From a virus (taxonomy: Duplodnaviria > Caudoviricetes), in the IMG/VR virus record IMGVR_UViG_3300021956_000017, positions 1 to 57,617 of that record: 57,617 nucleotides of DNA; one strand, 5' to 3'. Shown piece by piece: positions 1-56,982 of this stretch. The notes below the pieces were generated by a model, which was not told the origin of the DNA, did not search any database, and saw nothing but the letters and a program-made list of their open reading frames with translations. Numbering within the stretch: position 1 is the stretch's first letter; each line of letters begins with the position of its first letter. A program made the translations under genes and the position numbers.

Positions 1-100
1 TGGTGTCAGAGGGGCATGTGGACGCGTGGATGGACACCATCCCGCTCAAAGTTGCGCGAGAAATTTACTTGCGTTTAGACGCCATCTTTGGAGCACAGAA

Positions 101-8498: not shown

Positions 8499-8509
8499 AA
8501 GGACGTACT

Positions 8510-8743: not shown

Positions 8744-8744
8744 T

Positions 8745-8867
8745 GTGCACTGCGCAGACTTCGACGAAGACTGCGCATACGTTCCAAATAAAACAAAGTG
8801 CTGGTTGTACCAGCCGGAGAAGGGGTTATGCCCCTATCTCCAAGGAGAAGTAAATGGAAATTATTGA
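8745..8867 (+). CDS. putative small Cys-rich peptide (40 aa)
   Basis: GTG start right after the HNH stop; HCADFDEDC...KCW...LCP. Confidence 0.35.
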   Translation: MHCADFDEDCAYVPNKTKCWLYQPEKGLCPYLQGEVNGNY

Positions 8868-10413: not shown

Positions 10414-10421
10414 GAAAGGAG

Positions 10422-10449
10422 TTGCAGACGCCGAAAAATCGTGTACACT
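10422..10449 (+). promoter_or_regulatory. putative sigma70 promoter
   Basis: TTGCAG-16 nt-TACACT in the intergenic gap before the SSB operon. Confidence 0.5.
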
Positions 10450-10483
10450 TGTCAAACACTAGACACAACAACAGGAGAAGTAG

Positions 10484-10885
10484 ATGACTGAAGAAGCTAT
10501 CCCCATTGATAAGCTGACCAAGATTTACCGCAAAATCAAAGCGGAAATCGACCAACTGACCAAAGAGTACGACACGCGAGTGGAAGAACTCAAGGCATCG
10601 CAAGACGAGATTAAGTTTGCGATTAAAGACCAGATGAAAGCGCTTGGCGTTTCGTCTGTGAAAACCGAGTTTGGCACTGTCTCAATGGCCAACAAAACGC
10701 GGTACTCCACCCAAGACTGGGACTCGTTCAAGACGTTCATTGTCGAGCACGATGTCGTGGACTTGTTGGAGAAGCGGATTGCCCAACTGAACATGGCCAA
10801 ATTTTTAGAAGACAACCCCGGTGTTGTTCCCCCCGGTCTCAATGCTTTTAGCGACTTTGAGATTCGTATTACCAAACCACGTTAA
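10484..10885 (+). CDS. conserved replication-module coiled-coil protein (Gam/gp157-like architecture)
   Basis: Coiled coil followed by SVKTEFGTV, DWDSF and PPGL motifs; AGGAG SD. Confidence 0.7.
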   Translation: MTEEAIPIDKLTKIYRKIKAEIDQLTKEYDTRVEELKASQDEIKFAIKDQMKALGVSSVKTEFGTVSMANKTRYSTQDWDSFKTFIVEHDVVDLLEKRIAQLNMAKFLEDNPGVVPPGLNAFSDFEIRITKPR

Positions 10886-10895
10886 GAGAGAACCC

Positions 10896-11861: not shown

Positions 11862-11960
11862 TTTTTCGGGGGCTGAAAGCAGTAAAAAGCTCAGGGCTGG
11901 TACACCACGGGACTCATCGCAAGATAAAGCCGAAATAGACCACAGCCCCCACCTATAACT

Positions 11961-12239
11961 ATGGCTTATTCACCAAAAATTAAGGAGCTTGTGGCTTCGT
12001 CCCCCAAGACGCTGGGCAACCAGCTCGGGCGGTGGGCAATCCACTTGAACTTCCCTGTTACGAAGATTGCGTACGCGCTGGGCGTAACGCGTCAGACTGT
12101 CTACAACTGGTTTGAGGGGCGGGACATTTTCCCTGCCTACCAGAACCGTGTTGAATTTCTTTTATCAATTATGCGGTCGTCGAAAACGGCAGACCAAGCG
12201 TGGAGAACAATATGCAAAGAGTACAACTTGAAGCCCTGA
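11961..12239 (+). CDS. helix-turn-helix DNA-binding protein (Cro/XRE-like)
   Basis: VTKIAYALGVTRQTVYNWFEG. Confidence 0.85.
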   Translation: MAYSPKIKELVASSPKTLGNQLGRWAIHLNFPVTKIAYALGVTRQTVYNWFEGRDIFPAYQNRVEFLLSIMRSSKTADQAWRTICKEYNLKP

Positions 12240-12421
12240 AACCCAGCATGCTGAGCGACGAAGAGTTCGCCAAATACGTCACGCTGCATACGCCGGAACA
12301 GTTGCCCATGTCGTGGGTGGCCGAGTTGGTTGAGCGCTTCATTGCAAAGCTGAAGACTGTTGACGCACTGGAGAGCGCTGTCGCTGCGCTTGAAGAAGAA
12401 CTCCTCGACACCGCCGAATAA
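12200..12421 (+). CDS. hypothetical protein
   Basis: ORF between HTH and primase; true start may be the ATG at 12212 after GGAG. Confidence 0.6.
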   Translation: MENNMQRVQLEALKPSMLSDEEFAKYVTLHTPEQLPMSWVAELVERFIAKLKTVDALESAVAALEEELLDTAE

Positions 12422-12439
12422 CCCAACCCAAGGATTTCT

Positions 12440-15391: not shown

Positions 15392-15560
15392 GCGGGGGCA
15401 GGGGTTCTTCATCCCCTGCTTGGACGTTGTGGCCGTCAAGGAAGCGGGCCTACAAGCAGCCCTGCGGCATCGGTACTTTGGCGCTAAGGCCGAGGTCGGT
15501 ATCCGCAATGGGCTGCTTGGGGTCTGGTTCTACCGTCCGGCTAAGACTCCAGCTCCTTGA
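15351..15560 (+). CDS. small conserved phage protein
   Basis: YPWQKIERGQGFFIPC...GVWFYR; last gene of the + strand block, overlapping the convergent gene's stop. Confidence 0.65.
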   Translation: MKKLLYKYPWQKIERGQGFFIPCLDVVAVKEAGLQAALRHRYFGAKAEVGIRNGLLGVWFYRPAKTPAP

Positions 15561-18500
15561 TGCGCTGTTCAAACTTTGATGCCAAGTCCTGCTTGCGCTT
15601 TTCAAGGTCGTCGATGCGCTTGCGCTTCTCGTCGCCGGGCATATTCGCACCGCGAATCCGTTCTTCCATTGCCCGAATGTTGCCCATCAACTTCTGATAC
15701 TGCAAGGCCATAGGCGCAACGCGAAGCTCGGTACGGTGGTTTTCCACAAAGTCTTTGGCATCTGCGGCCCGGCCTTCCCGTTTCATGGCGTCGAAATCGC
15801 GCTTGGCCTGCATCGCCTCATCCGCCAGTTTGTACATGACGTCCGCGTCAGCACCGCCGTACTTCTTCTGGAACGCGCTACCAATGAACGACATCTCCGA
15901 CAAGTTTTTGGGCACAGGCTCCACTTCACCGTCTTTGAACAGCCCATTGGTTGCAGCCAGCACGGCAAGGGGAATCTGCCCAAAATAGCCGGACACGATG
16001 CGCTCAATCTGAATGGGTGACAGGACAGGCGCAAACTTGCTCATGGCCTTGGCCAGCTCGGTGGTGTTGGCGTTGTAGCGCTCCTCCACGCTCTTGCCAC
16101 GAAGACGGGTTGACTCCAGCTCGAAGCCGGTGTTGAAGTCTTTGTTCGTCCACACCTCCGCAATCGGTTTGACGACCTGCGGCACACCCATAGAAGACGC
16201 GCCGGGGATAGCGCCCTTAAACATGCTTTGAAGCGCGGCAAGCTGCTGCCCGCCATCCGTCTGCCCGGCCATAGCGTCTGCTGCGGCTGCGCCCAACGAA
16301 AAGAACCAGCCAAACTCGTACGGGATGGGCAGTTTCAGCGGTTCATCCAGCCCCGGCACATGCATAAAGAAGTTGCTGTACCGGTCTTTGGGCTTGGCGT
16401 TCTTGTAGTAGTCGTCATCCTGCATAGCCATTGCGTATGCGATGCCGCCCGCAGCCAGCAGCATGGCGTTGTTGTAAAACTTCTGCTTGATTTTGAGCTG
16501 CTCGTTAAACGGCATCTGCCCGGTGGCTGCTTTGTACAGGACGTTCAAGCCCTGAATCTGGGCATTGAAGAACGGAATCATCCGGCTGGCGTACTGGATT
16601 GCTGGCGACAGACCCCGCTTGTGGAAGTTCATCGACTCCATGACGGCAAACTCTGCCTCCACTTCCGACAGCCCGTTCTTGATGGCGTTCTCGTACACCA
16701 GCGCCCGTGTGGCAGCATCGGCATTGAGCGCGGCCTTGTCAGCCATGCGGAACAGTTTGTCGAAGGCGTTGAAGTCCTTGCCGCTTGCCAGTTGCAGCGC
16801 AAACTTGGAGATGTCGTCCGGGTCACCTGTGAAGATGCCGCTCTGCATCAAGCCTTTTTTAATCAACTCCGCCGCAGTATTACTCTGCCCGGTGCTCATC
16901 TTCAAGAACTCTTTGTTGGCTTTGTAAACTGCGGTCAGCATGCCGTAGTCCAGCCCGGAAGTGGCGGTTGCCGCCATAGGGTCACGGAACAACTGACGCA
17001 GCAGGTACAGCGGAGTGCGGGTAACACCGGCACGCAACAGGTCACCGGCAATGCCGCCCCACTTCAAGAACCCCGGCAGCGTCAGGGGCGCGCCCTCAAG
17101 GCTTTGAATCAATAACTCCGCCGGGATACCCTCGGCCACCGTTCCGTTGGTTTGTACGCGCACATGGCGCTCACCATTGTCTTTGGGGTCGTTGGGGTCA
17201 GGCTCTTGGTTAAACCGGATGATGCTGGCGTCAGACGCCACGCCGTAACCCTTGCGGACTTGCATACTGTCCGTGGCTTTACCAATCTCCTGCATGGCAT
17301 AGCCCACATTGCGAGCGGCCAAGTTGGTCAGGGCCTTGTTCACCAACAACGTGGTGTTGCGCGGGATGGACTCGTTGATGGGCAGAATCTTGGCTTCGCC
17401 GCCCTTGAGTGCTGCCAGATGTGGCTGGTGGCGGATGTCGCCAATGCGGATGGTGCGCTCACCACCAAACACCAGCTCGGCTATGCCGTTCTCTTTGACC
17501 CGGTAGTACGGAACGTAGTCGCCGTCACGCAGGAAGTCCCGCGCCTCGGCCTTGGTGATAGCGCCCGTATCTGCCAAGAACTCAATCATTCCCTTGTTGT
17601 AGGCGTTGTACCGCTCACGCACTTTCTCCAGTGCGGCTTTCAGTTGGGGGTTGGCTTCCGCCGCCGCCATTGCAGCGTCAACTTCTTGCTGGGTAATACC
17701 CAAGGCCCCGAGGTCTAGCTTGGCCAGCCCTTTGTTGGCAGCACGCTGCGCAATCAGGTACATGGTTGCCATCTGCATTTTGGCGGCTTCATTGCCGTAC
17801 CTATCTGGGATGTCGCCTACCGCAGCAAACACCTCCTTGGCGCTGTCTTTCCCGGTGCTGCGGATTCCTTTGAGCCCCTTGTCGTCTTCGTATATTTCCA
17901 ACGGCCCATTGCTCAGTGCGGACAATACCAACGGCATCTTCTGGTCGGCCTTGGTGTAGCTGTACATGGCCTGCTGAAACAGGCGGGAGTCGCCAAACGC
18001 CTTGGCTCCCATCTCCATTACCTTGCGCAAAGCCGCCCGCATATCGGTCGTCTGCATCTCAAACTCAAGCGCGTAGTTTGAACCACCACGCATGGTCTGC
18101 CACCAGCCCTGCTTCTGCGCTACGGTTCTTTGCGCCAGTTGGGACAAGTCATTGTCTTCGCCGTACTTGGCTGCTTTGGCAAACGCTTGTTGTTCGCCCG
18201 GTTTGGCAAAGTACGTCTCCGACGGCATGTAGATTTTCTCAATCAAGTCCAGCGCTTGTTTGCTTGGAGGTTGATTGAACAAGCCCGCTATCCAGCGTTT
18301 CAATTTCTGCCAAAGCGACTCAGGCTTGCCGATACCGTCCAAACGGTCGCGGAAGTCTTTGCTGGAGTTGACCTCGGACATGAACTCGTGCACGTCCTTG
18401 ATGCCGTACTGGCCTTTCAAATCCAACCGGCTTTCAGCCGCCTTGAACAAGTTGATGATGCCCTGCTTGGACGCACGCTGCATTGGCGTTAGCTGGGAGT

Positions 18501-21500
18501 CCGGCGTGCGCATTGCCTTGGTGGTGGCAGCGTGGGTCAACTCGTGCAGCAAGTCTTCTTCCGTCACGCGGTTGGGGTGCATTGTGATTTTGTTGCGGCC
18601 CTCTTCGTACAGACCGGCGACCATCTCACCCTGATACTTAACGAACCGGTCAACGCCAATCGTAGTGCCGTGCAGGAACTCACGCAGCCCCTTGGCACGT
18701 TCACGGATTGCCGGGGTCGAACCGTGCTTGATAAGCCCATCAACAACGCCCATGATGTCGTTGTCCCGCACAGCAAACTTCACGTCGTCATGCGGCACAG
18801 TCAGATTCAGCGCTTCCGCCTCATCCATCAGCTTGGCAAACTCATTGCCTTTATCCAACTCAGCTTGCGTAGCGGCTTCCAACTTGGCTTGGGCCTTTTT
18901 TTCCGCAGGGGTCAGCAACGCTTGCTTGGCAAGCTCCAACGCGTTTGCTTTGGCGCGTTCGTTTGTTTCAGCCCGGTCTACTACGGCTTGCGCTTCTTCT
19001 TTGGCCTTGCCTTCTTTGGCGGCATTCAATTTTTCCAACGCAGCAAGGGCTTCTTTTGTGGCTTGCTTCAACGCAGCTTCTGCCGAGATGACGTTGTTCT
19101 CCAGTACCTCCCGCGCTTCTTGCGCTGGGGTTAGTTTTCGGGGCTTGCGGGCTTGGCTAAGTCGCTGTTGTCCGCTTGTGCCGCCAGCGCCTTCGATACT
19201 TTCAGCCGTACCCGTACGCATTTTTGATGGTGCAGCCGTTTGGGTTCTGGCTACGGGGCCTGCTGTTGGTGCAGTCTTTACAAGCCCTGCAAGGTTTTTG
19301 TAGTAGTTGTACTGCGCTTTCAGTGTTTGAAGCTGCTTGTTAATTCGCGCAACGCTCTTGCCTTGTTCTTGCAAGGCTTGGCCTTCTGCCCGCAACGCGT
19401 CAAACTGAGTTTTAATCCGGCCCATCTCTTCAACAGCCGTTTGTTTTTCTTGCTCACGGCGCATCCGCTCAAACGTGTCTTCCGTTGCTTTTTCTCGGGC
19501 TTTTGCTGCGCGGCTTTCAGGCGTAGTCTTTTCAATTGGCTCAACGATTGTTTTTTTAGTAAGCCCCGACAATTCGGTTTCAATTTTGTCTATGGCGTTG
19601 TCAACGCGCTTTGTGCTTTTCTTTTGGGCAACCAGTTCTTCGCGTTTTTCTTGCGCAATTTTTAACTGCTTTTCAAGGTCTTTAAGTTTGATTTCAAAAT
19701 TCTTCTGCGCAATTGGGGGCACAGTGACGCGGCTACCGGGCAGTGTTTCACCTGCCGGGGTTTGAATAGTTCCAGTTTGCCGCGCCGTAACCGCAGCCTG
19801 CATCTCATTCTTCTGCTTGTTGACGGCTTCCGCGTTGCGCTTGGCAGCTACCTCGGCTGCGCCCACAACAGCGCGTTGTGCCTTGGCCTCGGCCTGCTTT
19901 TGTTTGACAGCAGGGTTGCTCTTCTGAAACTCCTGCAAGTCTTTAAGCTGCCCATCCAGCAGCTCCAGTTTCTTGCGCTCAACGAGCACCAGCCCGTCCA
20001 GCATGGCTTGGGCAGAAAACTCCGCGCCGTTGTAGGCTTCGTTCAGCTTTGCGTTTAACTCCGCCAACCCTTGTTGCGCCGCAGCAATTTCTGTTTGCAG
20101 CGCCGTAGCTTTTTCCAACTCGTTTGCCAACGCCTTCTGTTCACCAGCGCGACCTTCAATGGCTTCAGCAGCGGCAATCATCTGCCCTATGCGCGTTTGC
20201 ACAGCAGCCAACTGCCTCTCGGCGGTATTCAGTGCGTCCTGTGCGTTCTTAATGTCAGGGGCGTACAGCGCAGCCCGCGCATCCATCGCTTCCTTCTTGG
20301 CTTCTGCAAAGGCTTCCTTCACTGCAATCGCGTAGTTCTTTTGCGCCTCGGGGATGCGTTTGTTTAACCGCTCGGTTGCTGCGTCAATAATTTTTTGGTT
20401 GGCAATAGCCAGCTTCTTGGCTACGTCCAATGCAGCACGCCCCGCTTTGACCGCAGGGGACTTTTCAAAATTACTTGCCGTGGCACGGATGTGCCCAATG
20501 TCTTCACGCGTTTCGGGGAATAGCTCGGTTTGCGCTTGGGCTTGCCGTATTGACTGACGTTCCAAAGCGTCTGCTTCTTTGTCTTTTCCTTCTGCACGCA
20601 ACTTTGCAATTTTTGCAGCCGTCTGGCTGTCTAAGTCCAAACTGCCCTGCGCCTTTTCATACTCGCGCAGTGTTTCTTGCAGTTCGCGCAACGCGCTACC
20701 TTCCGGGGCCAACGCCGCTTCGTAGCTAACGGTTTTGTTTACACGTCCGCGTTCCCCAATGCGCGTCTCGCTGGGTTTACCGGGCACGTTCTCATAGACT
20801 TTTCCTGCTTTCCAATTTGTTCCGGGTTCAGATACGGTACGCGTATACGTTTGCTTGCCAAGGTCTTCCCCACGCAAAATGCGCTCAGCTTGGTTCTGTG
20901 CTGCATCCAACATGGCCCTATTAGCTTTGCCGTCTTCAATCAAGTCTTTTACCCGCAACAACGCTTCTTTGATGCCCTGTGTACGAATAGGCCCAAACTC
21001 CGTCTCTATGGTTTCCCCTTCAGGGATGCTGCGTTGCAGCGCTTTATCAATTAGATTGCCTACGTATTCCTGTAGGCGGCGCAGTTCTCCGGCCAGCGTG
21101 GTGGCTGTTTCTCCTTTTTCTTCCGCAGTCTTGCGGGCTTCTTCGGCAGCAAACTGGCGTTTCAATGGGCCAGTTTCTACGCGCTGCGGTGCACGCGGTG
21201 GGTTTGCAAGCTGGTTGCGAAGAGTGTCCAGTTGTTCTTTGATGACGGCAACCGCAGGGTGGTACGCACCAAACCGGCGCTCCTCCAGTGGGCGCAAGTC
21301 CCGCATCTCAGTCTCTGCACCAAGAATGGTCTTGGCCCCCCGCACAATGGCAGGCTTTGTGACGACCTCCGTCAGTGCTTCACGGCGTGGCAACGCCTGC
21401 ACTCGGTTCACCCACTCGCTCAAGGCAGTATGCAGTTCGGATGCGGCTTTGGTGGCTTCGTCTACCGTCATGGCTGGACGGCCTTGTGCGCGGCGGGCAA

Positions 21501-23811
21501 TGGCTGCTTCTTGTAGCGCGGCGCTGATGTAGTCGGCACGGGCGCGTTCGGCACGGGCCACGGCGGTTTGTATTGTCCCCGACGCGGTTTCGCCTTTTTC
21601 TTTACCCAAGAAGTTGCCGGTGCGAATCTTGTCCAATTCGTCTTCAATGCGGGTAAGGGCGTCTTGTTGTGCGCGACGGGCTGCAATGGTTTCTTGGACG
21701 TGCACCGGGCCATCTTTGGCCAAGGCATTTACTTGGTCAAGCGCAAGGTTCCCGCGCCCAAACGCCGCCGATGCTGCGGCCTGTTCATTTGACCGCTTAG
21801 CCGTAACGTAGTCTTGGTCTGCTTTTTCTTTTTCTGCCAGCAGTTTATCCAGCTTGCCGATGTCCTCGGATGCTTTGTCAGATGGAAGAATTGCTTCATT
21901 GACTTTTACAACAGGCTGCCCCCCACCCAACGCCTTTTCAAACATGGGGTCAAGGTAGCTGAAGTCGGTCTCTCCAGTACGGCGCAAGTTTTCAAGCGCA
22001 TCCATACCTTCGGTGAACCCCGCCATGCGTTCATCTACTGGCGCAACTTGTTGCTGGGTTTGCAAATCGGCTTGACGCGTAGCCAGTTCCTGCGCCGTGG
22101 CTTTTTTGGCTTGCTTTTCTTTTTCAGCAAGGCGTAGCTTCAACCCGGATAGCAAGTTGTTGTTGTCCACCGTCGACAGCGTAAAGGCTGTATTGCCTTC
22201 TTGGATGGGCGGTATCTTGACCCGGTTTTCAACCAACTGCTGTGCCAGCTTGGGGTCTTGCATCAAATAATCGGCGTAGCTGCCCAAGTCCATATCACCC
22301 GCGCTACGGGCAGCGCCAATCTGCTGGGCCGCGTAGTCTGTAAGCGTAGTGTCAGCTTTGGTGGCGGGTGCGGCCTCGGTTTGGTACAACGAACGCGCAG
22401 CGCCCTTACGACCGCTGACTTGGATGCCTTCGCCTGTGCGTTTCTGCATCTGCTCCAGCATGTAGTCCTCGGGAGTCATTGCTGCAACGCGCTCTTGTTC
22501 CTTAGCTGTTTCCAAAACAGAACGAACACGCCGGTACTCCGACGCTGCCGCTTTCAAAATGGGGGCATGCTCTCGCAGCTGAGCGTTGATTGCTGCGTTG
22601 TCTTGTTTCTGCGCTTCAGTGAGCGGCTGCGTTTTTGTGGCTTTTTGAATCTGCGCTTGCAGGTCGGCCTTCACTTTTTCAGCATCGTTGTACGCTTGCT
22701 CAGCTTCTTTGGCGTACTCTGGGGTCTGGCGGTAGGCAACTTTCTCGGCTTCGGTTTTGGCTTTAGCCTGCGCATCGGCTGCGGCTTGGGCTTGTCGGTC
22801 TCTTTGTTCTTGAAGACTGACCTGTGCGCGTGCCCCGCCGCGTTCTTGTAAACCGGTAACGCCACCAATAGGGAAACCCAGCACCATATTCAACGCCGTA
22901 ACGCGGTACTGCTGTAAAGCTTCATCATCGGCAAGCGGTTTGCCAATCGCAGCCCGGTCTACTACGTCTTGCAAGATTTCAGTGGGTAGTTCTCCAGCAG
23001 TAAAACCTACTGCACCCCGAGCAATGGTCTCAATGTTGCCGCGTCCTGCTACTTTTGTAGCTTTTTCCATCAACGCCAACCGCGCTACATCATCCGCTTC
23101 TGCGGCAACTTTTTGGCCAATGGCTTTCTTGAACGCACTTGGTAGTGCGATGCGTGTACCGACCAAGTTGAGGGCTGCGTTTGCAGACGCGTATGGAGCC
23201 AGCTCCAACGCATCAACGTCAACTTTTTCACCTTTACTGATTTGGTCTTTTGCTTTTTCTTGCGCTTGGCTTCCCAGTGCTTGGATTGCATTTACGACAA
23301 GAGGTACAGCGTACTGCCCAACTGTTGCGCCAACTGCCGTTCCCGCAGGGCCAAAGACAGAACCCAACGCCCCGCCGCCAAGCCTGCCTGCGGCAGCTAG
23401 CCCAAACTCTTGCCCAACAGATGGTGCAAGCCCTGCGACTGCGGATGGAACTTGTTTTAGCGCTTCGCCAGCGGCGGATAGGTAGTTACCCTTATCAAAC
23501 TCGCTTGTGATTTTTTCGGGTTGGAAACCGGACTCGTATTTCTGTTGGAGATTCTTTTCCCGTTCAATACCTGCTTGGGCTGCGGCATTGGTGTTGCCGG
23601 TCAATGCTGCTATACCGGTCTTGCCGATGTTGAGCAGGTTTTCAGCGCCCCCCATTACATCGGCAAGAATGCCTTTGCGGGGTTTGATTGGTGTGCCCGC
23701 TTCCGGGTGCTGCGCTAGAACTTGCCGTATTACGTCATCTTGAGATGCCCCTTCCGGCCCCTCAATACTGTATGTGTTTCCATCCGGTGCTGAGATGCGG
23801 TAAGTAGGCAT
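15541..23811 (-). CDS. giant polyvalent/ejection protein (2756 aa) with zincin metallopeptidase and C-terminal LPD38-like domain
   Basis: N-terminal YRISAPDGNTYSIEGP; long coiled coils; LLHELTHAAT...EFMSE; PFFNAQIQG...KLPIPYEFG C-terminal region. Confidence 0.8.
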   Translation of the reverse strand: MPTYRISAPDGNTYSIEGPEGASQDDVIRQVLAQHPEAGTPIKPRKGILADVMGGAENLLNIGKTGIAALTGNTNAAAQAGIEREKNLQQKYESGFQPEKITSEFDKGNYLSAAGEALKQVPSAVAGLAPSVGQEFGLAAAGRLGGGALGSVFGPAGTAVGATVGQYAVPLVVNAIQALGSQAQEKAKDQISKGEKVDVDALELAPYASANAALNLVGTRIALPSAFKKAIGQKVAAEADDVARLALMEKATKVAGRGNIETIARGAVGFTAGELPTEILQDVVDRAAIGKPLADDEALQQYRVTALNMVLGFPIGGVTGLQERGGARAQVSLQEQRDRQAQAAADAQAKAKTEAEKVAYRQTPEYAKEAEQAYNDAEKVKADLQAQIQKATKTQPLTEAQKQDNAAINAQLREHAPILKAAASEYRRVRSVLETAKEQERVAAMTPEDYMLEQMQKRTGEGIQVSGRKGAARSLYQTEAAPATKADTTLTDYAAQQIGAARSAGDMDLGSYADYLMQDPKLAQQLVENRVKIPPIQEGNTAFTLSTVDNNNLLSGLKLRLAEKEKQAKKATAQELATRQADLQTQQQVAPVDERMAGFTEGMDALENLRRTGETDFSYLDPMFEKALGGGQPVVKVNEAILPSDKASEDIGKLDKLLAEKEKADQDYVTAKRSNEQAAASAAFGRGNLALDQVNALAKDGPVHVQETIAARRAQQDALTRIEDELDKIRTGNFLGKEKGETASGTIQTAVARAERARADYISAALQEAAIARRAQGRPAMTVDEATKAASELHTALSEWVNRVQALPRREALTEVVTKPAIVRGAKTILGAETEMRDLRPLEERRFGAYHPAVAVIKEQLDTLRNQLANPPRAPQRVETGPLKRQFAAEEARKTAEEKGETATTLAGELRRLQEYVGNLIDKALQRSIPEGETIETEFGPIRTQGIKEALLRVKDLIEDGKANRAMLDAAQNQAERILRGEDLGKQTYTRTVSEPGTNWKAGKVYENVPGKPSETRIGERGRVNKTVSYEAALAPEGSALRELQETLREYEKAQGSLDLDSQTAAKIAKLRAEGKDKEADALERQSIRQAQAQTELFPETREDIGHIRATASNFEKSPAVKAGRAALDVAKKLAIANQKIIDAATERLNKRIPEAQKNYAIAVKEAFAEAKKEAMDARAALYAPDIKNAQDALNTAERQLAAVQTRIGQMIAAAEAIEGRAGEQKALANELEKATALQTEIAAAQQGLAELNAKLNEAYNGAEFSAQAMLDGLVLVERKKLELLDGQLKDLQEFQKSNPAVKQKQAEAKAQRAVVGAAEVAAKRNAEAVNKQKNEMQAAVTARQTGTIQTPAGETLPGSRVTVPPIAQKNFEIKLKDLEKQLKIAQEKREELVAQKKSTKRVDNAIDKIETELSGLTKKTIVEPIEKTTPESRAAKAREKATEDTFERMRREQEKQTAVEEMGRIKTQFDALRAEGQALQEQGKSVARINKQLQTLKAQYNYYKNLAGLVKTAPTAGPVARTQTAAPSKMRTGTAESIEGAGGTSGQQRLSQARKPRKLTPAQEAREVLENNVISAEAALKQATKEALAALEKLNAAKEGKAKEEAQAVVDRAETNERAKANALELAKQALLTPAEKKAQAKLEAATQAELDKGNEFAKLMDEAEALNLTVPHDDVKFAVRDNDIMGVVDGLIKHGSTPAIRERAKGLREFLHGTTIGVDRFVKYQGEMVAGLYEEGRNKITMHPNRVTEEDLLHELTHAATTKAMRTPDSQLTPMQRASKQGIINLFKAAESRLDLKGQYGIKDVHEFMSEVNSSKDFRDRLDGIGKPESLWQKLKRWIAGLFNQPPSKQALDLIEKIYMPSETYFAKPGEQQAFAKAAKYGEDNDLSQLAQRTVAQKQGWWQTMRGGSNYALEFEMQTTDMRAALRKVMEMGAKAFGDSRLFQQAMYSYTKADQKMPLVLSALSNGPLEIYEDDKGLKGIRSTGKDSAKEVFAAVGDIPDRYGNEAAKMQMATMYLIAQRAANKGLAKLDLGALGITQQEVDAAMAAAEANPQLKAALEKVRERYNAYNKGMIEFLADTGAITKAEARDFLRDGDYVPYYRVKENGIAELVFGGERTIRIGDIRHQPHLAALKGGEAKILPINESIPRNTTLLVNKALTNLAARNVGYAMQEIGKATDSMQVRKGYGVASDASIIRFNQEPDPNDPKDNGERHVRVQTNGTVAEGIPAELLIQSLEGAPLTLPGFLKWGGIAGDLLRAGVTRTPLYLLRQLFRDPMAATATSGLDYGMLTAVYKANKEFLKMSTGQSNTAAELIKKGLMQSGIFTGDPDDISKFALQLASGKDFNAFDKLFRMADKAALNADAATRALVYENAIKNGLSEVEAEFAVMESMNFHKRGLSPAIQYASRMIPFFNAQIQGLNVLYKAATGQMPFNEQLKIKQKFYNNAMLLAAGGIAYAMAMQDDDYYKNAKPKDRYSNFFMHVPGLDEPLKLPIPYEFGWFFSLGAAAADAMAGQTDGGQQLAALQSMFKGAIPGASSMGVPQVVKPIAEVWTNKDFNTGFELESTRLRGKSVEERYNANTTELAKAMSKFAPVLSPIQIERIVSGYFGQIPLAVLAATNGLFKDGEVEPVPKNLSEMSFIGSAFQKKYGGADADVMYKLADEAMQAKRDFDAMKREGRAADAKDFVENHRTELRVAPMALQYQKLMGNIRAMEERIRGANMPGDEKRKRIDDLEKRKQDLASKFEQRIKELES

Positions 23812-48999: not shown

Positions 49000-49944
49000 T
49001 TAAGACTCCAATTTTGCTACTTGAGCAGCGTACTGCTGCGGGGTTAATCCAAACTTCTTGGCCAACGCAAGCGCTGACGGCGTAATCTGAATTTTCTTTG
49101 GCCCTGACGAACGGGTCGCTGGGGCTACCACGGATGCTGGACGCTGACTCCTTTCACTTTGGGGCTTTTCACTCCGGCTACTCCCGAACACTTCGGGAAA
49201 TTTGCTTCTGACACTATTGTCAATCTGCGCGTAGTACTCATCACTTTGCGGGTCAATGCCCGAGTTCACTAGCTTTTGATGCAACCCTAGTGCGTAGTTG
49301 GATACATCCTCGAACCCCTCAGAACCGAACCACTGGTTTTTTGCTTGCCAGCGCAAGGATTTTTGGTCAGGTTTTCCCTGTGGGGCCACAGGTTGTTGCG
49401 TTTGTACACTATCGCTGTACGTTTGTAAAGGGGCCGGGCGGAAGCTTTTTGCCCGCTCCAAGTTGAACTTGGCGTCGGTCATGGCTTCCTGAGCGGCAAT
49501 GATGGCGTCCGTGTCAAAGGCTTCTTGCGCTTCCTTGTACTGACGGCGGGCTTTTTCCATCTCGGCTTCCGCAGCGGACAGGCCGGAGGCAGCAATCTGC
49601 TTTGTGCCTTGCTCGACGTAGCCCTTGAGCTGTTTGTTCTCGTCCAACAAAGCTTGGGCCAGCCGCTCCAGCTCCTGCTTTTCCCGCAGGGTGGACTCTT
49701 TGGCGCGGCGTTCGTCGTGCCGTGCGTGGGTCAGCTTCTTGATGCGCTCTTGGACTTTGGAGCTGTAGGTCTCCAGTTCTTCGTCCGTGGGGTCTTCGAC
49801 CGGCTCTTCCAGCTTTTGACGACCGCGGTCTTGCTCCGGGGTATCGTCTACGACTTCGACTTCAATGTCGGTGTCGCCGGTTTCAATGTCAACGGTGACG
49901 GTTTTTTCGTCTTCAATCTCGTCGGGAAATTTGAATTCAGACAT
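49000..49944 (-). CDS. putative capsid scaffolding protein
   Basis: Acidic N-terminus, long coiled coil, W...N.WFG, C-terminal LAKKFGLTPQQYA helix; between portal and MCP. Confidence 0.75.
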   Translation of the reverse strand: MSEFKFPDEIEDEKTVTVDIETGDTDIEVEVVDDTPEQDRGRQKLEEPVEDPTDEELETYSSKVQERIKKLTHARHDERRAKESTLREKQELERLAQALLDENKQLKGYVEQGTKQIAASGLSAAEAEMEKARRQYKEAQEAFDTDAIIAAQEAMTDAKFNLERAKSFRPAPLQTYSDSVQTQQPVAPQGKPDQKSLRWQAKNQWFGSEGFEDVSNYALGLHQKLVNSGIDPQSDEYYAQIDNSVRSKFPEVFGSSRSEKPQSERSQRPASVVAPATRSSGPKKIQITPSALALAKKFGLTPQQYAAQVAKLES

Positions 49945-53076: not shown

Positions 53077-54618
53077 TCAGTAGTATGCGGCTGCACGCCG
53101 CCTAAAAATTTTCGGCTCATCCTTCTCATCGGAGTCCAACGGGATGAAGCCGCCTTGTCGATAGCGCAGCAGGGCTTGGGTTGTCGTGTCCACGTAGTCG
53201 TCGTTCTCCCCCACCGGGAAAGCCGCAATCTCTTCAATCACCTCACGCGCCCAGCGTGTATCGGGAGCCCACACTTTACCTGATGTGAACAAGTCGGCCA
53301 CCGCGTTGACACGCACCATCTTGTCGTTGCCGCGGCTGGGGCTGAACTCTTGGACCGGGATGCCCATCTGGCGCAGTTCTTGGATGAGCGGTGCACCAGC
53401 GGCTTTCTTCTCCACGATGAACGCGTCGGGCTCCCACTCTTTGTAGTGCCGCAGCGCAACTTGCTTGAGTTCGGGGAATGCCATGCGGTCTTTGAACGCG
53501 TCCAGCAGAATGATTTGGGGCGTGTTGCCCTCTTCCTCGTTGTACCAAACGCCCCACGTCGTGCAGGCACTGTAGTCAGACGTGTTCTTGGTCTCAAACG
53601 CCGTGTCCCAGCTCTGGAGGACGTATTCACACTGGGGCGGGTCTTCTGCCGTCCAAATCCGCCAGCTCTTGCGGGAAATCAGCGCCGAGTTGTCCATTGT
53701 CGGCTGCTGCATGTACTGGGCGTTCCAATACCGGGGGTCAATGCTGGCCTTGGTGGCTTTCAGGGACTCTAGCGTCCACTGCTCGGGCCAGAGAGACTTC
53801 TCCTGCGGCGTGTCTTCGTTCAGGATGGCTGGAAGCTCCACGATTTCCCACGGAATCGACTCGGGATTCTTGGTTTGGTACGTCAGTAAGCGCCCTGTCA
53901 GGTCCAGCAGCGACCAACGGGTCATCACGATGATGATTGCCCCGCCCGGCATCAGCCGTTGCAGCGGCCCGGTCTGCATCCACGACCACGCAGTGTCAAA
54001 CGCAAGGCGGCTGTTGGCTTTTACGTCCTGCTCAGAGTGCGGGTCGTCGATTACAAACAAATCCGCGCCGCGCCCGGCCAGTGCACCACCCACACCGGCA
54101 GCGTAGTACTGGCCTCCAGCCCCGGTTGACCATTTACCCGCAGCTTTTTGGTCGGCTGCGACCCGCGTATCGGGAAAAATGGCGTTGTAGTCCTCGCTGT
54201 CCAGCAGATTTCGCACCCGGCGACCATAATCCTCCGACAAACCCGCCGTGTGGGTGGCCATGATGATTTTTTTGTCGGGGTACTTGCCTAAAAAATAGGC
54301 AGGAAACAGGTAGGAACTGAATTCGGACTTGCCCATACGGGGTGCAATGTTGATGATGACGCGTTTTTTGCGCCCTTCAATCACGTCCGTGAAGATTTTG
54401 GCCAGCTTACGGTGGTGTGCGCCGATTTTGAAGCCCGGATAGACCGCCGTGGCAAAGCCCAGCATGTTATGTTGCGCTGCAGCAAGTGACACGCGCTTCT
54501 CTCGCACCTCCAAATCGTTGAACAGCTCCATCTTTTCTTGGAGTGTCATGGTCGGCAGCGCCTTCATCAGCGCTTCCAGCTCCTGTTTGTTCAGCGATGT
54601 GAGGATTTCAGGCGTCAT
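53077..54618 (-). CDS. terL: terminase large subunit
   Basis: APRMGKS Walker A, GRGADL.VIDDP Walker B, MTRW, QYMQQP, SWDTA, IVEKKA.G, NDDYVD. Confidence 0.95.
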   Translation of the reverse strand: MTPEILTSLNKQELEALMKALPTMTLQEKMELFNDLEVREKRVSLAAAQHNMLGFATAVYPGFKIGAHHRKLAKIFTDVIEGRKKRVIINIAPRMGKSEFSSYLFPAYFLGKYPDKKIIMATHTAGLSEDYGRRVRNLLDSEDYNAIFPDTRVAADQKAAGKWSTGAGGQYYAAGVGGALAGRGADLFVIDDPHSEQDVKANSRLAFDTAWSWMQTGPLQRLMPGGAIIIVMTRWSLLDLTGRLLTYQTKNPESIPWEIVELPAILNEDTPQEKSLWPEQWTLESLKATKASIDPRYWNAQYMQQPTMDNSALISRKSWRIWTAEDPPQCEYVLQSWDTAFETKNTSDYSACTTWGVWYNEEEGNTPQIILLDAFKDRMAFPELKQVALRHYKEWEPDAFIVEKKAAGAPLIQELRQMGIPVQEFSPSRGNDKMVRVNAVADLFTSGKVWAPDTRWAREVIEEIAAFPVGENDDYVDTTTQALLRYRQGGFIPLDSDEKDEPKIFRRRAAAYY

Positions 54619-55180
54619 TGGAAAGAACGGCTTCCTGAATATCGACTACGCCCATGAACCGATTGAGCTTTTCCTTGATGCGCTGCTCCAACTCGGTGTC
54701 GGTGAGCGATTCTTTCTGGACTTCAATCTTGTCGGTGAACAATCCCACCTCGGTCACCTTGCCAAGTAGGCCGAGCGCCTTGAGGCGGATGTTTGCGTTG
54801 GGGTTTTGGGTTTCTTCCACCAGTTTGGCGACGGTGTAGCCGCGCAGTTCTTTGGCTTGGTGGATGAACTCCCAGTCGTAAGCAGTCAGCATTCCCACCA
54901 GATGTTGCACCGCAGCAGGCGTCTTGACCTGTGCCAGCGCAGTGTGGGTAATTTCTTCCGGTGATGCGGAAACCAGATTTGCAAAGGTCTCTTGCGCGGC
55001 TTTGGTGTCAAGTGCAGTTGCCAGCTCTGTGCTGTCTACCGCGCCCATCTGCTTCAGCCAGTCGGTGGTATTGATTTTGGCGTTGAGCAAAGCTGTGGGG
55101 TCAGCCTTCCTTACCGCTTCCACTGGGCGTGGGCGGTTGGGGAGAATCTCCGGGTCGAAATCAATCAGGTGTTCAAACAT
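54608..55180 (-). CDS. putative terminase small subunit
   Basis: Directly upstream of terL; RLKALGLLGK..VGLFT.K.EV. Confidence 0.7.
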   Translation of the reverse strand: MFEHLIDFDPEILPNRPRPVEAVRKADPTALLNAKINTTDWLKQMGAVDSTELATALDTKAAQETFANLVSASPEEITHTALAQVKTPAAVQHLVGMLTAYDWEFIHQAKELRGYTVAKLVEETQNPNANIRLKALGLLGKVTEVGLFTDKIEVQKESLTDTELEQRIKEKLNRFMGVVDIQEAVLSNDA

Positions 55181-55189
55181 GCGTAGGTA

Positions 55190-55218
55190 TTGTGACCTCG
55201 TTGGACACAGTGTATACT
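55190..55218 (+). promoter_or_regulatory. sigma70-type promoter
   Basis: TTGTGA-17 nt-TATACT. Confidence 0.55.
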
Positions 55219-55224
55219 ACTTCT

Positions 55225-55315
55225 CGGTAGGTGTGCAACTCTTGTGCATTTGCTTCTCCTTGGTAGGTAACACTATCCTTAAACCCCCGGCCTCAAAAAC
55301 CGGGGATTTTTTTTT
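55225..55315 (+). ncRNA. candidate antisense small RNA with anti-SD/anti-AUG seed
   Basis: Bounded by the promoter at 55190-55218 and the terminator at 55285-55315; no ORF; contains CATTTGCTTCTCCTTGG. Confidence 0.5.
55285..55315 (+). terminator. intrinsic terminator
   Basis: CCCCGG-9 nt-CCGGGG-A-T9. Confidence 0.75.
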
Positions 55316-55516
55316 GAAATTTTTAGGCCTGCCTATTTTTTAAGCAAGGGGGTGGGCTGCTGGATTGGGGTTAAGTTGTCTAAGGTTTTACAAAGTACTG
55401 GGAGCGTGTGGGGAATAGTGTTTGGGGCAATGGGCCATCGTCTGCTCCATAAGGGGTGATACCCCCGTGGTGGGGTCGCCATAGTGTCTACTACCCTGCA
55501 TTATTTACACCCCTCG

Positions 55517-55525
55517 TGGTAAAAT
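55517..55525 (+). promoter_or_regulatory. putative extended -10 early promoter
   Basis: TGgTAAAAT upstream of the first early gene. Confidence 0.4.
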
Positions 55526-55598
55526 AGAGGCATCGGTTGGGGAATGGTTCCCTACTGATTCCGTTGCACAGTGCAACACTTTCCTACTGGAGAAACCT

Positions 55599-56012
55599 AT
55601 GACGACTAAGTTCAACAAGACCGCCCTGTTCGCAGCCCTCAACAAGTTCGCCAACAATCGGGTGCAGTTCATTCAAGAGGTCATCAACGCGGGCTACCCT
55701 ACGTTGGAGCAGGCCCGCCCGCACATCATGGAATGGGTGGCTATGCAGATTAAGGGTGTGGAAGCCGTGACACTCAAGACAGGGCGCGTGGTGTTCAAGG
55801 GCGACAAAACCGCTTGCAATTCCGCACGCAGCTCCCTGCGCGACTTTCTGCTGAATCTGGAAGGCACTACGCGCCGCAAGGCCGCGCCCAAGGCCGCTGC
55901 ACCGAAAGAATCGGCCAAGGCCGCGCCGCTGACCAAGACGCAACGCACCGCACTCGACTTGGCTATCGCCGCTTTCGGTAGCAAGGCCAAACTGCTTGCC
56001 GCGCTGAAGTAA
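55599..56012 (+). CDS. basic early protein
   Basis: TGGAG SD; Lys/Ala-rich linker KAAPKAAAPK. Confidence 0.75.
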   Translation: MTTKFNKTALFAALNKFANNRVQFIQEVINAGYPTLEQARPHIMEWVAMQIKGVEAVTLKTGRVVFKGDKTACNSARSSLRDFLLNLEGTTRRKAAPKAAAPKESAKAAPLTKTQRTALDLAIAAFGSKAKLLAALK

Positions 56013-56107
56013 ATCTGTTGCACAGTGCAACACTTTTCCGTGCATGACCCCGAGGGCGGGGCTTGTGCGGTGTTTCTTTTATTGTCAACTTACCTTTGGA
56101 GAATCCC

Positions 56108-56269
56108 ATGTTCCACATCAGCGTTCGCGTCTGCGGCGGCTCATATCACTACGCAACCGCCGACAACCTATCCTGCGCCCTCACCCTTTTCCACGCCCTG
56201 ACCAAGACCTTCACAATGGTTGAGTTGCGGCAAGGCACAACCCTCGTCAGTTCCTACAACAACGCCTAA
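56108..56269 (+). CDS. small early protein
   Basis: TGGAGAATCCC-ATG. Confidence 0.55.
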   Translation: MFHISVRVCGGSYHYATADNLSCALTLFHALTKTFTMVELRQGTTLVSSYNNA

Positions 56270-56362
56270 GCAGGGCTTTCTGCAAGCGTAGCGTGCTGCG
56301 CTTGCGGGGCAATCCTGCCCAAATCTGTTGCACTGTGCAACGCTTTCCCTATGGAGAATCCT

Positions 56363-56560
56363 ATGAACCACATCGCTAACCGCACCCAATCCATCAACCC
56401 GTTCACCCGCGCCACTCTGACTGTGTACCCTGTCGGGACATGGCGTGACGAGAAGGCCAAGCGTGATGTAACCGAAGCCCTCTACTTCTACCAGTGCGGG
56501 GCAGACCGCTACACAGTGACTGTGTGGCACAAGCCAAAGGCCAAAGTGTCTATACACTGA
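56363..56560 (+). CDS. small early protein
   Basis: TGGAGAATCCT-ATG. Confidence 0.6.
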   Translation: MNHIANRTQSINPFTRATLTVYPVGTWRDEKAKRDVTEALYFYQCGADRYTVTVWHKPKAKVSIH

Positions 56561-56896: not shown

Positions 56897-56982
56897 CCCC
56901 AACAATGTCTACAAAAATAGGTATGCAGAATGTATAATAGCTTTGAAAGTGTTGCACTGTGCAACGCTATTGGAGACTCAAA

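What the first reader, a model, noticed from the sequence alone, without database searches (positions are those of the whole stretch)
55190..55315. Candidate phage-encoded trans-acting sRNA that base-pairs with the SD+AUG of the phage's own replication genes
Seen: a TTGTGA-17-TATACT promoter and a GC-hairpin/T9 terminator enclose ~90 nt with no + strand ORF. Bases 55247-55263 (CATTTGCTTCTCCTTGG) are complementary over 17 nt (one G-U) to the helicase RBS CCAAGGAGAAGTAAATG at 8840-8856. They also pair over 14 nt (two G-U) with AGGAGAAGTAGATG before 10484 and over 10 nt with AGGAGAAGCA before 7513. Weaker matches are AAGGAG-T-GCAAATG before 416, the related context before 676, AGGAGAA before 3255 and AAGGAGAA before 4030. 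Established: sRNA seeds that cover SD and AUG block translation. Inference: one sRNA located at the early/late divergence could shut off several early/replication cistrons whose RBSs converged on its seed. It is also antisense to the terS leader. The alternative reading is that the same bases are a minus-strand RBS for a 10-codon uORF.
Basis: partly seen in the sequence, partly recalled or inferred. Interest (0 to 1): 0.85.

Follow-up and report, generated by a model that had tools for sequence, protein, structure and literature searches.

The report
Conserved phage small RNA matching helicase start
A roughly 90-base small RNA gene sits just upstream of this phage's packaging genes, is kept in many related uncultured phages, and changes in step with the start region of the phage's own helicase gene, so it probably switches helicase production off.

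Summary
TTGTGA-17-TATACT (55190-55218) and a GC hairpin plus T9 (55285-55315) enclose about 92 nt on the + strand.

The unit is conserved upstream of the putative terS gene. In each of the 58 unique upstream sequences the MFE shows hairpin 1, a free UCUCCU linker, a second stem and a terminator. Pairing holds in 94.6% of cells against 35-53% for slid controls, and 16 of 24 pairs carry double changes. G-U pairs assign it to the + strand. It has no Rfam family.

The uORF reading fails: 21 of 63 relatives lack a start codon there.

The helicase claim is supported. In 15 genomes (12 unique pairs) the seed and the SNF2-helicase start region change together. The cognate contiguous match averages 13.0 nt against 9.3 nt for non-cognate pairs (0 of 100,000 permutations). 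One lineage lacks both the RNA body and the helicase motif.

The limits are as follows:
- There is no expression data.
- Four of seven distant unique combinations match the helicase by 7 nt or fewer.
- The gene at 10484 shows no covariation.
- The weak matches are at chance level.

My reading is a new phage sRNA family that probably represses helicase translation (about 0.6).

The parts
55190..55218 (+). sigma-70-like promoter of the small RNA: TTGTGA (-35), 17 nt, TATACT (-10)
   Evidence: The pattern TTGNNN-16..18-TANNNT is present at this place in 62 of 63 anchored relatives.
55209..55238 (-). Putative divergent promoter for the terS/late operon: TTGCAC (55238-55233), 18 nt, TACACT (55214-55209). 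Its -10 overlaps the sRNA -10 in a near-palindrome.
   Evidence: Read. The same pattern is on the terS strand in 55 of 63 relatives. Promoter activity is not tested.
55224..55315 (+). Predicted small RNA, about 92 nt. The 5' end is inferred from the -10 box and the 3' end from the T run.
55226..55254 (+). Stem-loop 1: a 13-bp stem rich in G-U. Its 3' arm (55242-55254) is the 5' half of the seed.
   Evidence: In helix 1, 91.6% of cells pair as + strand RNA against 57.1% as minus-strand RNA, and 34.5% of cells are G-U.
55247..55263 (+). Seed CATTTGCTTCTCCTTGG. The part 55255-55261 (TCTCCTT) is single-stranded in the predicted fold.
   Evidence: the TTGCTT..CC block is invariant in 30 aligned short forms; covaries with the helicase start region.
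55262..55277 (+). Stem-loop 2 (GGTAG/CTATC): variable sequence, conserved pairing
   Evidence: 5 of 5 pairs carry changes on both sides, and 98.5% of cells pair.
55285..55315 (+). Intrinsic terminator: 6-bp GC stem, 9-nt loop, T9
   Evidence: A T run of 6 or more preceded by a hairpin of -8 kcal/mol or better is found in 63 of 63 relatives.
8840..8856 (+). Proposed target: SD, spacer and ATG of the SNF2-family helicase gene (8854-10413)
10470..10486 (+). Possible second target: start region of the 133-aa gene after the helicase (14-nt match with two G-U)
   Evidence: No covariation in relatives.
54608..55180 (-). First late gene (190 aa), taken as the small terminase subunit from its position before terL only
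   Evidence: no PHROG hit; terL 53077-54618 hits phrog_38 at 4.7e-97; no Pfam family above cut-off.

Best explanation
Bases about 55224-55315 of the + strand encode a trans-acting small RNA of a family not yet described.

Anatomy. It has its own sigma-70-like promoter and three hairpins, the last of which is an intrinsic terminator. A pyrimidine-rich seed runs from the 3' arm of hairpin 1 through a 7-nt free linker (UCUCCUU).

Proposed mechanism. The free linker nucleates on the Shine-Dalgarno sequence of the phage's SNF2-family helicase mRNA, 46 kb away in the record. Pairing then spreads through the spacer to the AUG by opening the weak, G-U-rich hairpin 1. This occludes the ribosome-binding site and lowers helicase synthesis.

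Timing. The sRNA promoter shares a near-palindromic -10 region with the putative promoter of the terS/late operon, which points the other way. The silencer is therefore probably made from the same control region as the late genes.

What is shown by sequence comparison:
- the gene anatomy;
- the secondary structure and the strand;
- seed/target covariation in the window's clade;
- joint absence of the RNA body and the helicase motif in one lineage.

What is inferred: that the RNA is transcribed, its start site, that the effect is repression, its timing, and any need for Hfq.
For: 1. The anatomy is conserved.
- By the terS-like protein, 291 of 299 candidate stretches in viral contigs are relatives, and 80 were kept.
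- In each of the 58 unique upstream sequences the single-sequence MFE shows hairpin 1, a free linker holding UCUCC, a second stem and a terminator with U6-9, with apical inserts in many.
- The + promoter pattern is present in 62 of 63, and the T run and terminator hairpin in 63 of 63.

2. Structure.
- A covariance model built from 10 sequences finds exactly one hit, at the syntenic place, in 53 of 54 sources.
- On that alignment 94.6% of 1183 cells pair, against 34.9-53.3% when partners are slid.
- 16 of 24 pairs change on both sides (151 cells), and 0 of 500 shuffles reach any measure.

3. Strand. Helix 1 pairs in 91.6% of cells as + strand RNA but in 57.1% as minus-strand RNA.

4. Target.
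- In the window the helicase start is the best non-self site genome-wide and the best of 88 gene starts (-28.5 kcal/mol).
- Shuffled flanks give P = 0.0115. None of 88 reverse-complemented gene starts matches another start over 16 nt.

5. Covariation. Fifteen genomes hold both loci (12 unique seed/target pairs). Lineage-specific states appear at both sites:
- GAGAAGCAAATG;
- GAGAGAGCAAATGCA;
- GGAGAAAGCA;
- GGAGAAGCAATG (one A fewer);
- GGAGAAGCAG(A/G)TG;
- GGAGAAGCAT;
- three pairs kept through G-U.
The cognate mean run is 13.0 nt against 9.3 nt non-cognate (0 of 100,000 permutations). With the seven distant combinations added it is 11.1 against 8.1 (0 of 100,000). In G002-G004 the helicase SD lacks GGAG, so the shared bases are not simply an SD.

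6. Joint loss.
- The complete 65-kb genome G040 keeps the promoter remnant but lacks the seed, hairpin 2 and the terminator. Its helicase start reads AAAGAAGACGCGTAATG.
- The 15 loci whose terS is 92% or more identical to that genome's all lack a model hit.

7. No other family explains it. There are 0 Rfam matches at gathering score, and the best sub-threshold match is 21.7 bits against a cut-off of 39.
Against: - No transcript evidence of any kind: no RNA run could be listed. The promoter match alone is not above chance.
- The model-fitted alignment leans towards the structure, and the shuffle control ignores relatedness (caveats).
- Helicase pairing is not universal in the RNA family. Among 7 further unique seed/target pairs from distant clades, the cognate run is 5, 6, 7 and 7 nt in four (G047, G043, G044/45, G051) and 10 nt in three. 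No alternative start-region target emerged there.
- In G005 the helicase (10 nt) is outranked by other early-gene starts (13 and 12 nt), and GGAGAAAGC is a common RBS flavour in that genome.
- In G049 several early-gene starts match 14 nt of the seed's 3' half. This fits a broader anti-RBS role better than a single target.
- Half of the seed is buried in hairpin 1.
- A cofold estimate with 100-nt mRNA windows ranks the helicase only third of the predicted gene starts tested.
- The lineages are related, so the 12 pairs are fewer than 12 independent events.
Confidence: 0.6

Rival explanations
1. The small RNA is real, but the helicase is only one target, or not the main one. On this reading it is a general anti-RBS RNA whose seed tracks the clade's preferred early-gene ribosome-binding sequence. 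It would damp many early and middle genes, or host mRNAs.
For: - + strand (early/replication) gene starts pair better than minus-strand (late) ones: mean -14.3 (n = 38) against -11.4 kcal/mol (n = 50), Mann-Whitney p = 0.0011.
- In G005 and G049 several early-gene starts match as well as or better than the helicase.
- 7513 and 10484 orthologues recur among the better matches.
- Four distant combinations keep the RNA without helicase complementarity.
Against: - In the window the number of gene starts with a run of 10 nt or more is not enriched over flank shuffles (P = 0.74).
- Early genes simply have stronger SDs, which alone would give the strand difference.
- The lineage-specific spacer states (GCAT, GCAG, GCAATG, GAGAGAGC) are shared with the helicase start but not with the 10484 orthologue.
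- Host targets could not be examined because the host is unknown.
Confidence: 0.2
2. The transcript is a by-product of a bidirectional late promoter. The hairpins and terminator only insulate the early region from that divergent transcription, and the RNA itself has no function.
For: - The + and - promoter patterns share a near-palindromic -10.
- Such symmetric promoters fire both ways, and one binding event excludes the other (PMC12825309; I saw the abstract in the listing only).
- The strong terminator is conserved in 63 of 63.
Against: - An insulator needs only a terminator. Here hairpins 1 and 2 keep pairing through compensatory changes (7 of 13 and 5 of 5 pairs).
- The TTGCTT..CC block is invariant in 30 aligned short forms.
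- The seed covaries with a distant gene start.
Confidence: 0.07
3. The conserved bases are a minus-strand ribosome-binding site for a short leader ORF, or an N-terminal extension of terS. They resemble other RBSs only because they are one.
For: - On the minus strand the bases read CCAAGGAGAAGCAAATG followed by 10 codons.
- 42 of 63 relatives keep a start codon at SD distance.
- In some (for example L021-L024, L030, L036) the frame runs into terS.
Against: - 21 of 63 lack any start codon. Frame length is 1 to 38 codons with no peptide conservation.
- The G-U pairs, promoter and terminator are all oriented for the + strand.
- The conserved minus-strand promoter pattern lies downstream of this 'RBS', so the terS mRNA would not contain it (inferred).
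- Seed/helicase differences kept as G-U (G000, G021, G025, G034) fit RNA pairing, not a shared motif.
Confidence: 0.04
4. The helicase start region and the terS-upstream element are two copies of an operator for one RNA- or DNA-binding protein (a translational repressor of the T4 RegA kind, recalled). They change together because the protein's specificity changes.
For: The same 10-16 nt word occurs at both places and changes in parallel across lineages.
Against: - It would need a minus-strand transcript, for which no feature speaks.
- At least six different word states, including single-base insertions and deletions, would each need a matching change in the protein.
- Differences between the two copies that stay G-U compatible are expected for pairing, not for a protein site.
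Confidence: 0.03

Closest known systems
Trans-acting phage-encoded sRNAs of temperate phages: VpdS of vibriophage VP882 and PreS of lambda (review PMC12197685, passages read)
   Same: A short RNA with its own transcription unit, encoded away from its target, that acts by base pairing on mRNAs and bears on phage replication.
   Different: As described in the passages read, those come from temperate phages and are tied to Hfq: VpdS is said to bind Hfq and to affect both phage and host mRNA levels, and PreS is said to depend on Hfq and to target the host dnaN gene. Here the covarying target is the phage's own helicase, the phages are uncultured relatives (about 50% terL identity) of cultured HTVC023P-type pelagiphages, and nothing is shown experimentally. 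There is no sequence or Rfam relation.
Cis-antisense phage RNAs: lambda OOP against cII (PMC12197685) and P22 sar (recalled)
   Same: A small terminated phage RNA that blocks expression of a phage gene by pairing.
   Different: Those overlap their target on the opposite strand, so complementarity is automatic. Here the target lies 46 kb away in the record (14-17 kb in relatives). Complementarity must therefore be maintained by selection, which is what the covariation shows.
P1/P7 c4 RNA and P4 CI RNA (recalled, not looked up)
   Same: A phage RNA whose loops pair with the ribosome-binding region of a phage mRNA at another site.
   Different: As I recall, those are processed from the operon they control and serve immunity of a prophage. 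This RNA has its own promoter and terminator and sits at the early/late divergence.
Plasmid copy-control antisense RNAs, for example RNAII of pMV158 inhibiting repB translation (PMC4485353, abstract in the listing)
   Same: A small structured RNA that limits a replication protein by blocking its translation start.
   Different: Those are cis-encoded opposite the target leader on a plasmid. This one is trans-encoded on a phage.
Small RNAs of virulent phages: PAK_P3 sRNA1/sRNA2 and T4 band C/D RNAs (PMC4933390, passages read)
   Same: Abundant RNAs of about 100 nt from intergenic regions of lytic phages. The PAK_P3 pair is late-expressed.
   Different: Their targets and functions are unknown, and their only phage matches were 11-nt words inside genes. 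Here a target is supported by covariation, but expression is unknown.
Symmetric bidirectional bacterial promoters (PMC12825309, abstract in the listing)
   Same: A pseudo-symmetric -10 region usable in both orientations, with one RNA polymerase binding event excluding the other.
   Different: Here it is only a sequence pattern (55 of 63 relatives have both orientations). No start sites are mapped.

Membership tests
Trans-encoded base-pairing sRNA | Independent transcription unit: own promoter and Rho-independent terminator, no conserved ORF | tested here: met
   Promoter pattern in 62 of 63, terminator in 63 of 63. Minus-strand uORF not conserved. The + strand 139-codon frame begins far upstream of the promoter. 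This is sequence-level evidence only.
Trans-encoded base-pairing sRNA | Conserved, accessible seed | tested here: met
   The TTGCTT..CC block is invariant in 30 aligned short forms. The linker UCUCCU is unpaired in the MFE of the 58 unique sequences.
Trans-encoded base-pairing sRNA | Complementarity to a target at another locus, maintained by compensatory change | tested here: met
   Helicase start region: cognate 13.0 nt against non-cognate 9.3 nt, 0 of 100,000 permutations, 12 unique pairs. Not met in 4 of 7 distant unique combinations.
Trans-encoded base-pairing sRNA | The RNA exists in infected cells and changes target expression | not testable with these tools
   No RNA run was listed. 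The host is uncultured or unknown.
Trans-encoded base-pairing sRNA | Chaperone (Hfq/ProQ) dependence | not testable with these tools
   Only the U-rich 3' tail and the A/U-rich linker before the terminator are seen. These are suggestive and not a test.
Cis-antisense RNA (OOP/sar type) | Overlaps the target transcript on the opposite strand | tested here: inconclusive
   The only opposite-strand feature is the terS upstream region. The conserved minus-strand promoter pattern would start terS mRNA about 23 bp away, running the other way. The start sites are inferred.
Upstream ORF / leader peptide of terS | Conserved start codon and conserved or at least length-stable peptide | tested here: not met
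   No start codon in 21 of 63. Length 1-38 codons with unrelated peptides.
Any Rfam 15 family | Score at or above the family's gathering threshold | tested here: not met
   0 matches in the whole window. The best sub-threshold match is NsiR1 at 21.7 bits against 39, over the terminator half.
Symmetric bidirectional promoter | -35/-10 patterns in both orientations sharing the -10 region | tested here: met
   + pattern in 62 of 63 and - pattern in 55 of 63. In the window the -10 boxes overlap by 2 bp (55213-55214).
Symmetric bidirectional promoter | Divergent transcription start sites mapped about 18-25 bp apart | not testable with these tools
   No RNA data.

The most novel reading that the evidence does not exclude
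One near-palindromic RNA polymerase binding site is the phage's early-to-late switch. In one orientation it starts the packaging/late operon. In the other it makes a small RNA with a pyrimidine-rich, anti-Shine-Dalgarno-like seed. That seed co-evolves, clade by clade, with the ribosome-binding flavour of the replication and early genes, the helicase foremost. Turning on late transcription would then silence early translation through a single compact element. Lineages that lost the RNA (G040) would have rewired the helicase start accordingly.
Probability: 0.18. Interest if true: 0.8.

Novelty: new member of a known kind. Interest (0 to 1): 0.62.

Why it matters
Almost all characterised phage sRNAs come from temperate phages or prophages. 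For virulent phages the papers read here name only RNAs of unknown function.

This is a family with hundreds of natural variants in public viral contigs: 291 terS-linked relatives and at least 599 helicase relatives. Evolution has already done the compensatory-mutation experiment on it.

That gives a testable case of a phage timing its own replication machinery post-transcriptionally. The natural seed/target pairs form a ready-made orthogonality matrix that can be tested in a heterologous reporter without culturing the host.

The gene is also missed by protein-based annotation in a widespread group of aquatic podophages related to HTVC023P-type pelagiphages.

Tried and rejected
- RNA evidence: the look-up of sequencing runs on 54000-56500 listed no RNA holder.
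- Known families: Rfam at gathering score gave nothing. The E-value mode gave only sub-threshold hits on the terminator half.
- DNA similarity to deposited phages: none for 54600-56100.
- Cultured relatives found through terL: Phage DSL-LC04 (OR003939.1) and Pelagibacter phage HTVC027P (MN698241.1). Both have a different gene order before terL and no significant model hit (E = 0.54 and 0.56).
- N4-like idea. I first read the four GTTGCACNGTGCAAC palindromes and the 2756-aa protein as hairpin early promoters plus a virion RNA polymerase, with genome ends beside the sRNA. I dropped this. The giant protein hits only LPD38 and an unnamed PHROG. In two relatives with direct terminal repeats the ends lie in the late region, not near the sRNA (coordinates).
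- Link between the palindromic operators and the half-site inside hairpin 1: other clades use GGGTCACNGTGACCC, while hairpin 1 keeps TGCGCAA, so there is no covariation.
- RNAduplex scans of whole genomes with 22-27-nt seeds, and G-U-tolerant run scans, are noisy in these GC-rich genomes and were used only for ranking.
- A cofold estimate with 100-nt windows ranked the helicase third, behind a 64-aa late ORF and terS. The terS window contains the sRNA's own antisense. I judged this not discriminating.
- Prediction test: a scan for the exact complement of the divergent helicase start of the G040 lineage gave 42 stretches. Seventeen were helicase starts, 25 were unrelated places, and none was an sRNA-like locus. 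That lineage turned out to lack the RNA body.
- Records without a model hit (18 of 24): none of the 20 fragment records then searched (those 18 plus two) holds terS (0 of 20), so they say nothing about absence.
- Ten terS-bearing records were searched for the helicase without a match, or were too short.
- Rows dropped: L059 (truncated at terS), L037 from the anchor-based counts (seed TTTTCC, no CTCC anchor), G046 (helicase cut by the contig end), and L082, missed by the model at E <= 1.
- Literature: searches (plus 53 for the phage group) found no report of this RNA or of a virulent-phage sRNA acting on its own helicase. Supplementary tables, such as the 38 uncharacterised phage sRNAs of PMC12197685, could not be seen and might bear on novelty.
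- Structure prediction, complex prediction, the protein atlas and the large protein searches were not needed.
Full report
**What the window is**

The window is a whole IMG/VR virus record of 57,617 bases, classed as linear and estimated 91% complete.

- The + strand genes run from 55599 to the end of the record and from 1 to 15391. They include a DNA polymerase, a PD-(D/E)XK nuclease, an SNF2-family helicase (8854-10413) and a primase/helicase.
- The minus-strand genes run from 55180 down to 15541. They include a 190-aa gene taken as terS from its position only, terL, the portal and virion genes.
- The finding lies in the divergent gap 55181-55598.
- By terL the nearest cultured phages are HTVC023P-type pelagiphages and the lake phage DSL-LC04, at about 50% identity.

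**The observation**

- TTGTGA-17-TATACT lies at 55190-55218. It is the only sigma-70-like site in 1.7 kb, although one such site is what shuffles give.
- CCCCGG, nine bases, CCGGGG and then nine T lie at 55285-55315.
- The 91-nt RNA between them folds into three hairpins at -28.1 kcal/mol (z = -2.7).
- Bases 55247-55263 are complementary over 17 nt, with one G-U, to the helicase SD-to-ATG at 8840-8856. They match over 14 nt before 10484 and over 10 nt before 7513.
- With the CTCC core kept and the flanks shuffled, a best run of 16 or more arises in 1.15% of 2000 shuffles and a second-best of 14 or more in 0.55%. The count of gene starts matched over 10 nt or more is not enriched (P = 0.74). 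So two matches stand out and the weak ones do not.
- None of 88 gene-start regions, turned into a pseudo-seed, matches another start over 16 nt.

**It is a conserved, structured RNA gene on the + strand**

The terS-like protein has 291 relatives in viral contigs, and I examined the best 80. Their terS proteins are 60-100% identical to the window's, yet the upstream region keeps one layout.

Read on the window's + strand, that layout is:
- a TTGNNN-17-TAYAYT promoter;
- a hairpin whose closing stem is rich in G-U and whose tip varies, or carries an inserted stem;
- a free UCUCCU linker;
- a second hairpin of unrelated sequence in different lineages;
- an A/U-rich spacer;
- a GC-rich terminator hairpin followed by 6-9 T.

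Each of the 58 unique sequences shows hairpin 1, the free linker, a second stem and the terminator when folded alone.

A covariance model built from ten sequences found one hit at the same place in 53 of 54 sources and nowhere else. On that alignment:
- 94.6% of 1183 cells pair, against 35-53% when partners are slid by one to three columns;
- 16 of 24 pairs show changes on both sides;
- no shuffle of 500 reaches any measure.

That alignment is fitted to the model, which favours the structure. The single-sequence folds do not have that bias.

A third of helix-1 cells are G-U. The helix therefore pairs in 91.6% of cells as + strand RNA but in only 57.1% as minus-strand RNA.

The promoter pattern is present in 62 of 63 anchored relatives and the terminator in 63 of 63. 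Rfam has no family for it.

**The minus-strand reading fails**

The same bases read CCAAGGAGAAGCAAATG plus ten codons on the minus strand. Against that reading:
- 21 of 63 relatives have no start codon there;
- one has ATG followed directly by a stop;
- the others run 3 to 38 codons with unrelated peptides.

A minus-strand promoter pattern (TTGCAC-18-TACACT in the window, present in 55 of 63) lies downstream of that 'RBS'. It shares the near-palindromic -10 with the sRNA promoter.

If both promoters are used, the two RNAs start about 23 bp apart and run away from each other. The small RNA would then not be antisense to the terS leader. This is an inference, since no start site is mapped.

**The target**

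I paired the sRNA seed with the helicase start region in every record that held both: the window plus 14 relatives. The two sites change together, as these examples show:
- G002 and G003: the complement of the seed reads GAGAAGCAAATG, and so does the helicase start.
- G004 and G006: both sites read GAGAGAGCAAATGCA.
- G005 and G007-G009: both read GGAGAAAGCA.
- G019 and G026: both read GGAGAAGCAATG, one A shorter.
- G034: both carry GCAG in place of GCAA.
- G016: both carry GCAT.
- The window, G025, G034 and G021: the two sites differ, but only by changes that keep G-U pairs. G021 keeps 15 contiguous pairs this way.

Over the 12 unique combinations the cognate contiguous match averages 13.0 nt against 9.3 nt for non-cognate pairs. 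Energies average -21.6 against -17.1 kcal/mol. No permutation of 100,000 reaches either value.

In G002-G004 the helicase start has no GGAG, so the shared bases are not simply a Shine-Dalgarno sequence.

The helicase start is also unusually constrained. Most of the 80 helicase relatives examined keep a GGAGAAGCA-type word there.

The same test on the neighbouring genes gives no signal for the 10484 orthologue (p = 0.13) and a marginal one for 7513 (p = 0.046).

**A natural knock-out**

One group of helicase relatives has an unrelated start, AAAGAAGACGCGTAATG. A complete 65-kb genome of that group (G040) has terS, terL and the helicase but no model hit.

Its terS-upstream region keeps a decayed promoter and then runs straight into the sequence that follows the terminator in other phages. 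The seed, hairpin 2 and the terminator are gone. All 15 loci with 92% or more terS identity to it lack the RNA, while 53 of the 80 loci in that second terS set have it.

**Limits**

Eight further complete genomes from more distant clades carry variant RNAs. Two of these have only two hairpins and one has two seed-like stretches.

The cognate match to the helicase start in these genomes is 10 nt in G048, G049 and G050. It is only 5-7 nt in G043, G044/45, G047 and G051, and no other gene start stands out there. With these included the cognate excess persists (11.1 against 8.1 nt, 0 of 100,000), but helicase pairing is clearly not a property of the whole family.

In G005 and G049 several early-gene starts match as well as or better than the helicase. 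This keeps a broader anti-RBS role open.

Nothing here shows that the RNA is made. No RNA run was listed.

**Mechanism proposed**

Established knowledge, recalled rather than tested here, is that an sRNA duplex covering the SD and AUG blocks 30S binding.

The rest is inference:
- The 7-nt free linker acts as the toehold on the SD.
- Pairing then invades the G-U-weakened hairpin 1 as far as the AUG.
- Helicase synthesis falls.
- Because the sRNA promoter is fused to the late-operon promoter, this probably happens when packaging genes come on.

**Comparison with what is known**

The RNA works like a classical trans-encoded base-pairing sRNA. In purpose it resembles plasmid copy-control RNAs (PMC4485353, abstract only).

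The phage sRNAs reviewed in PMC12197685 (passages) are mostly from temperate phages and mostly aimed at host genes or the lysis-lysogeny choice. For virulent phages, PMC4933390 (passages) names only RNAs of unknown function.

I file it as a new member of a known kind. The family is new, the mechanism is conventional, and the biological role, a lytic-type phage tuning its own helicase in trans, is not in the papers I could search.

Noticed in passing
window 55563-55577, 56017-56031, 56327-56341, 56951-56965: Four perfect 15-bp palindromes GTTGCACNGTGCAAC lie before the first + strand genes (4 found, 0.58 expected). G002 has five of the same kind. G004, G005 and G025 instead carry GGGTCACNGTGACCC at the equivalent places. 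These look like lineage-specific operators, presumably matched to a lineage-specific regulator.
   Followed up: partly
window 55316-55420 and the same place in loci L004-L083: Conserved blocks lie downstream of the sRNA terminator: AAATTTTT..GCC..TTTTTTAAGCAAGGGGGTGGG, and TTGTCTAAGGTTTTACAAAG. In other clades these appear as a TTGTCTAACGTTAGACAA palindrome followed by GGATTTTTTATAAAATTT. They may be the early promoter or operator region.
   Followed up: no
loci L021-L024, L030, L036 (upstream of terS): In these relatives the minus-strand ATG opposite the seed is in frame with terS with no stop, giving a possible extension of 24-37 residues (frames of 25-38 codons up to and including the terS start). 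The frequency is about what chance allows.
   Followed up: partly
G040 (L251-L254), terS upstream at about 49611-49720 of that record: A natural deletion of the sRNA body with a decayed promoter remnant, in a complete 65-kb genome and 15 loci of its lineage.
   Followed up: yes
G050 (L284), upstream of terS: A variant RNA with two seed-like stretches (..CTGCTCCTCCTTG.. and ..CATTTTGCTTTCCTTG..) before one long terminator. The covariance model does not detect it.
   Followed up: no
window 15541-23811 (-): A 2756-aa ORF whose only Pfam hit is LPD38, a large polyvalent protein domain (3.1e-21), plus an unnamed PHROG. Orthologues in relatives are 31-49% identical in the tested pieces.
   Followed up: no
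window 54924-55343 (+): A 139-codon TTG-started open frame runs antisense through terS and across the whole sRNA. It is probably a shadow frame of the GC-rich terS.
   Followed up: no
records G044 and G049: IMG/VR classes these two relatives as having direct terminal repeats. By the coordinates their ends lie several kb downstream of terS, inside the late region, not at the early/late divergence.
   Followed up: partly
window 8815-8853: Just upstream of the helicase SD, GGAGAAGGGG..CCCCTATCTCC can form a hairpin whose 3' arm (TCTCC) abuts the SD (sequence). It is a possible local structure that could compete with, or cooperate in, sRNA access.
   Followed up: no
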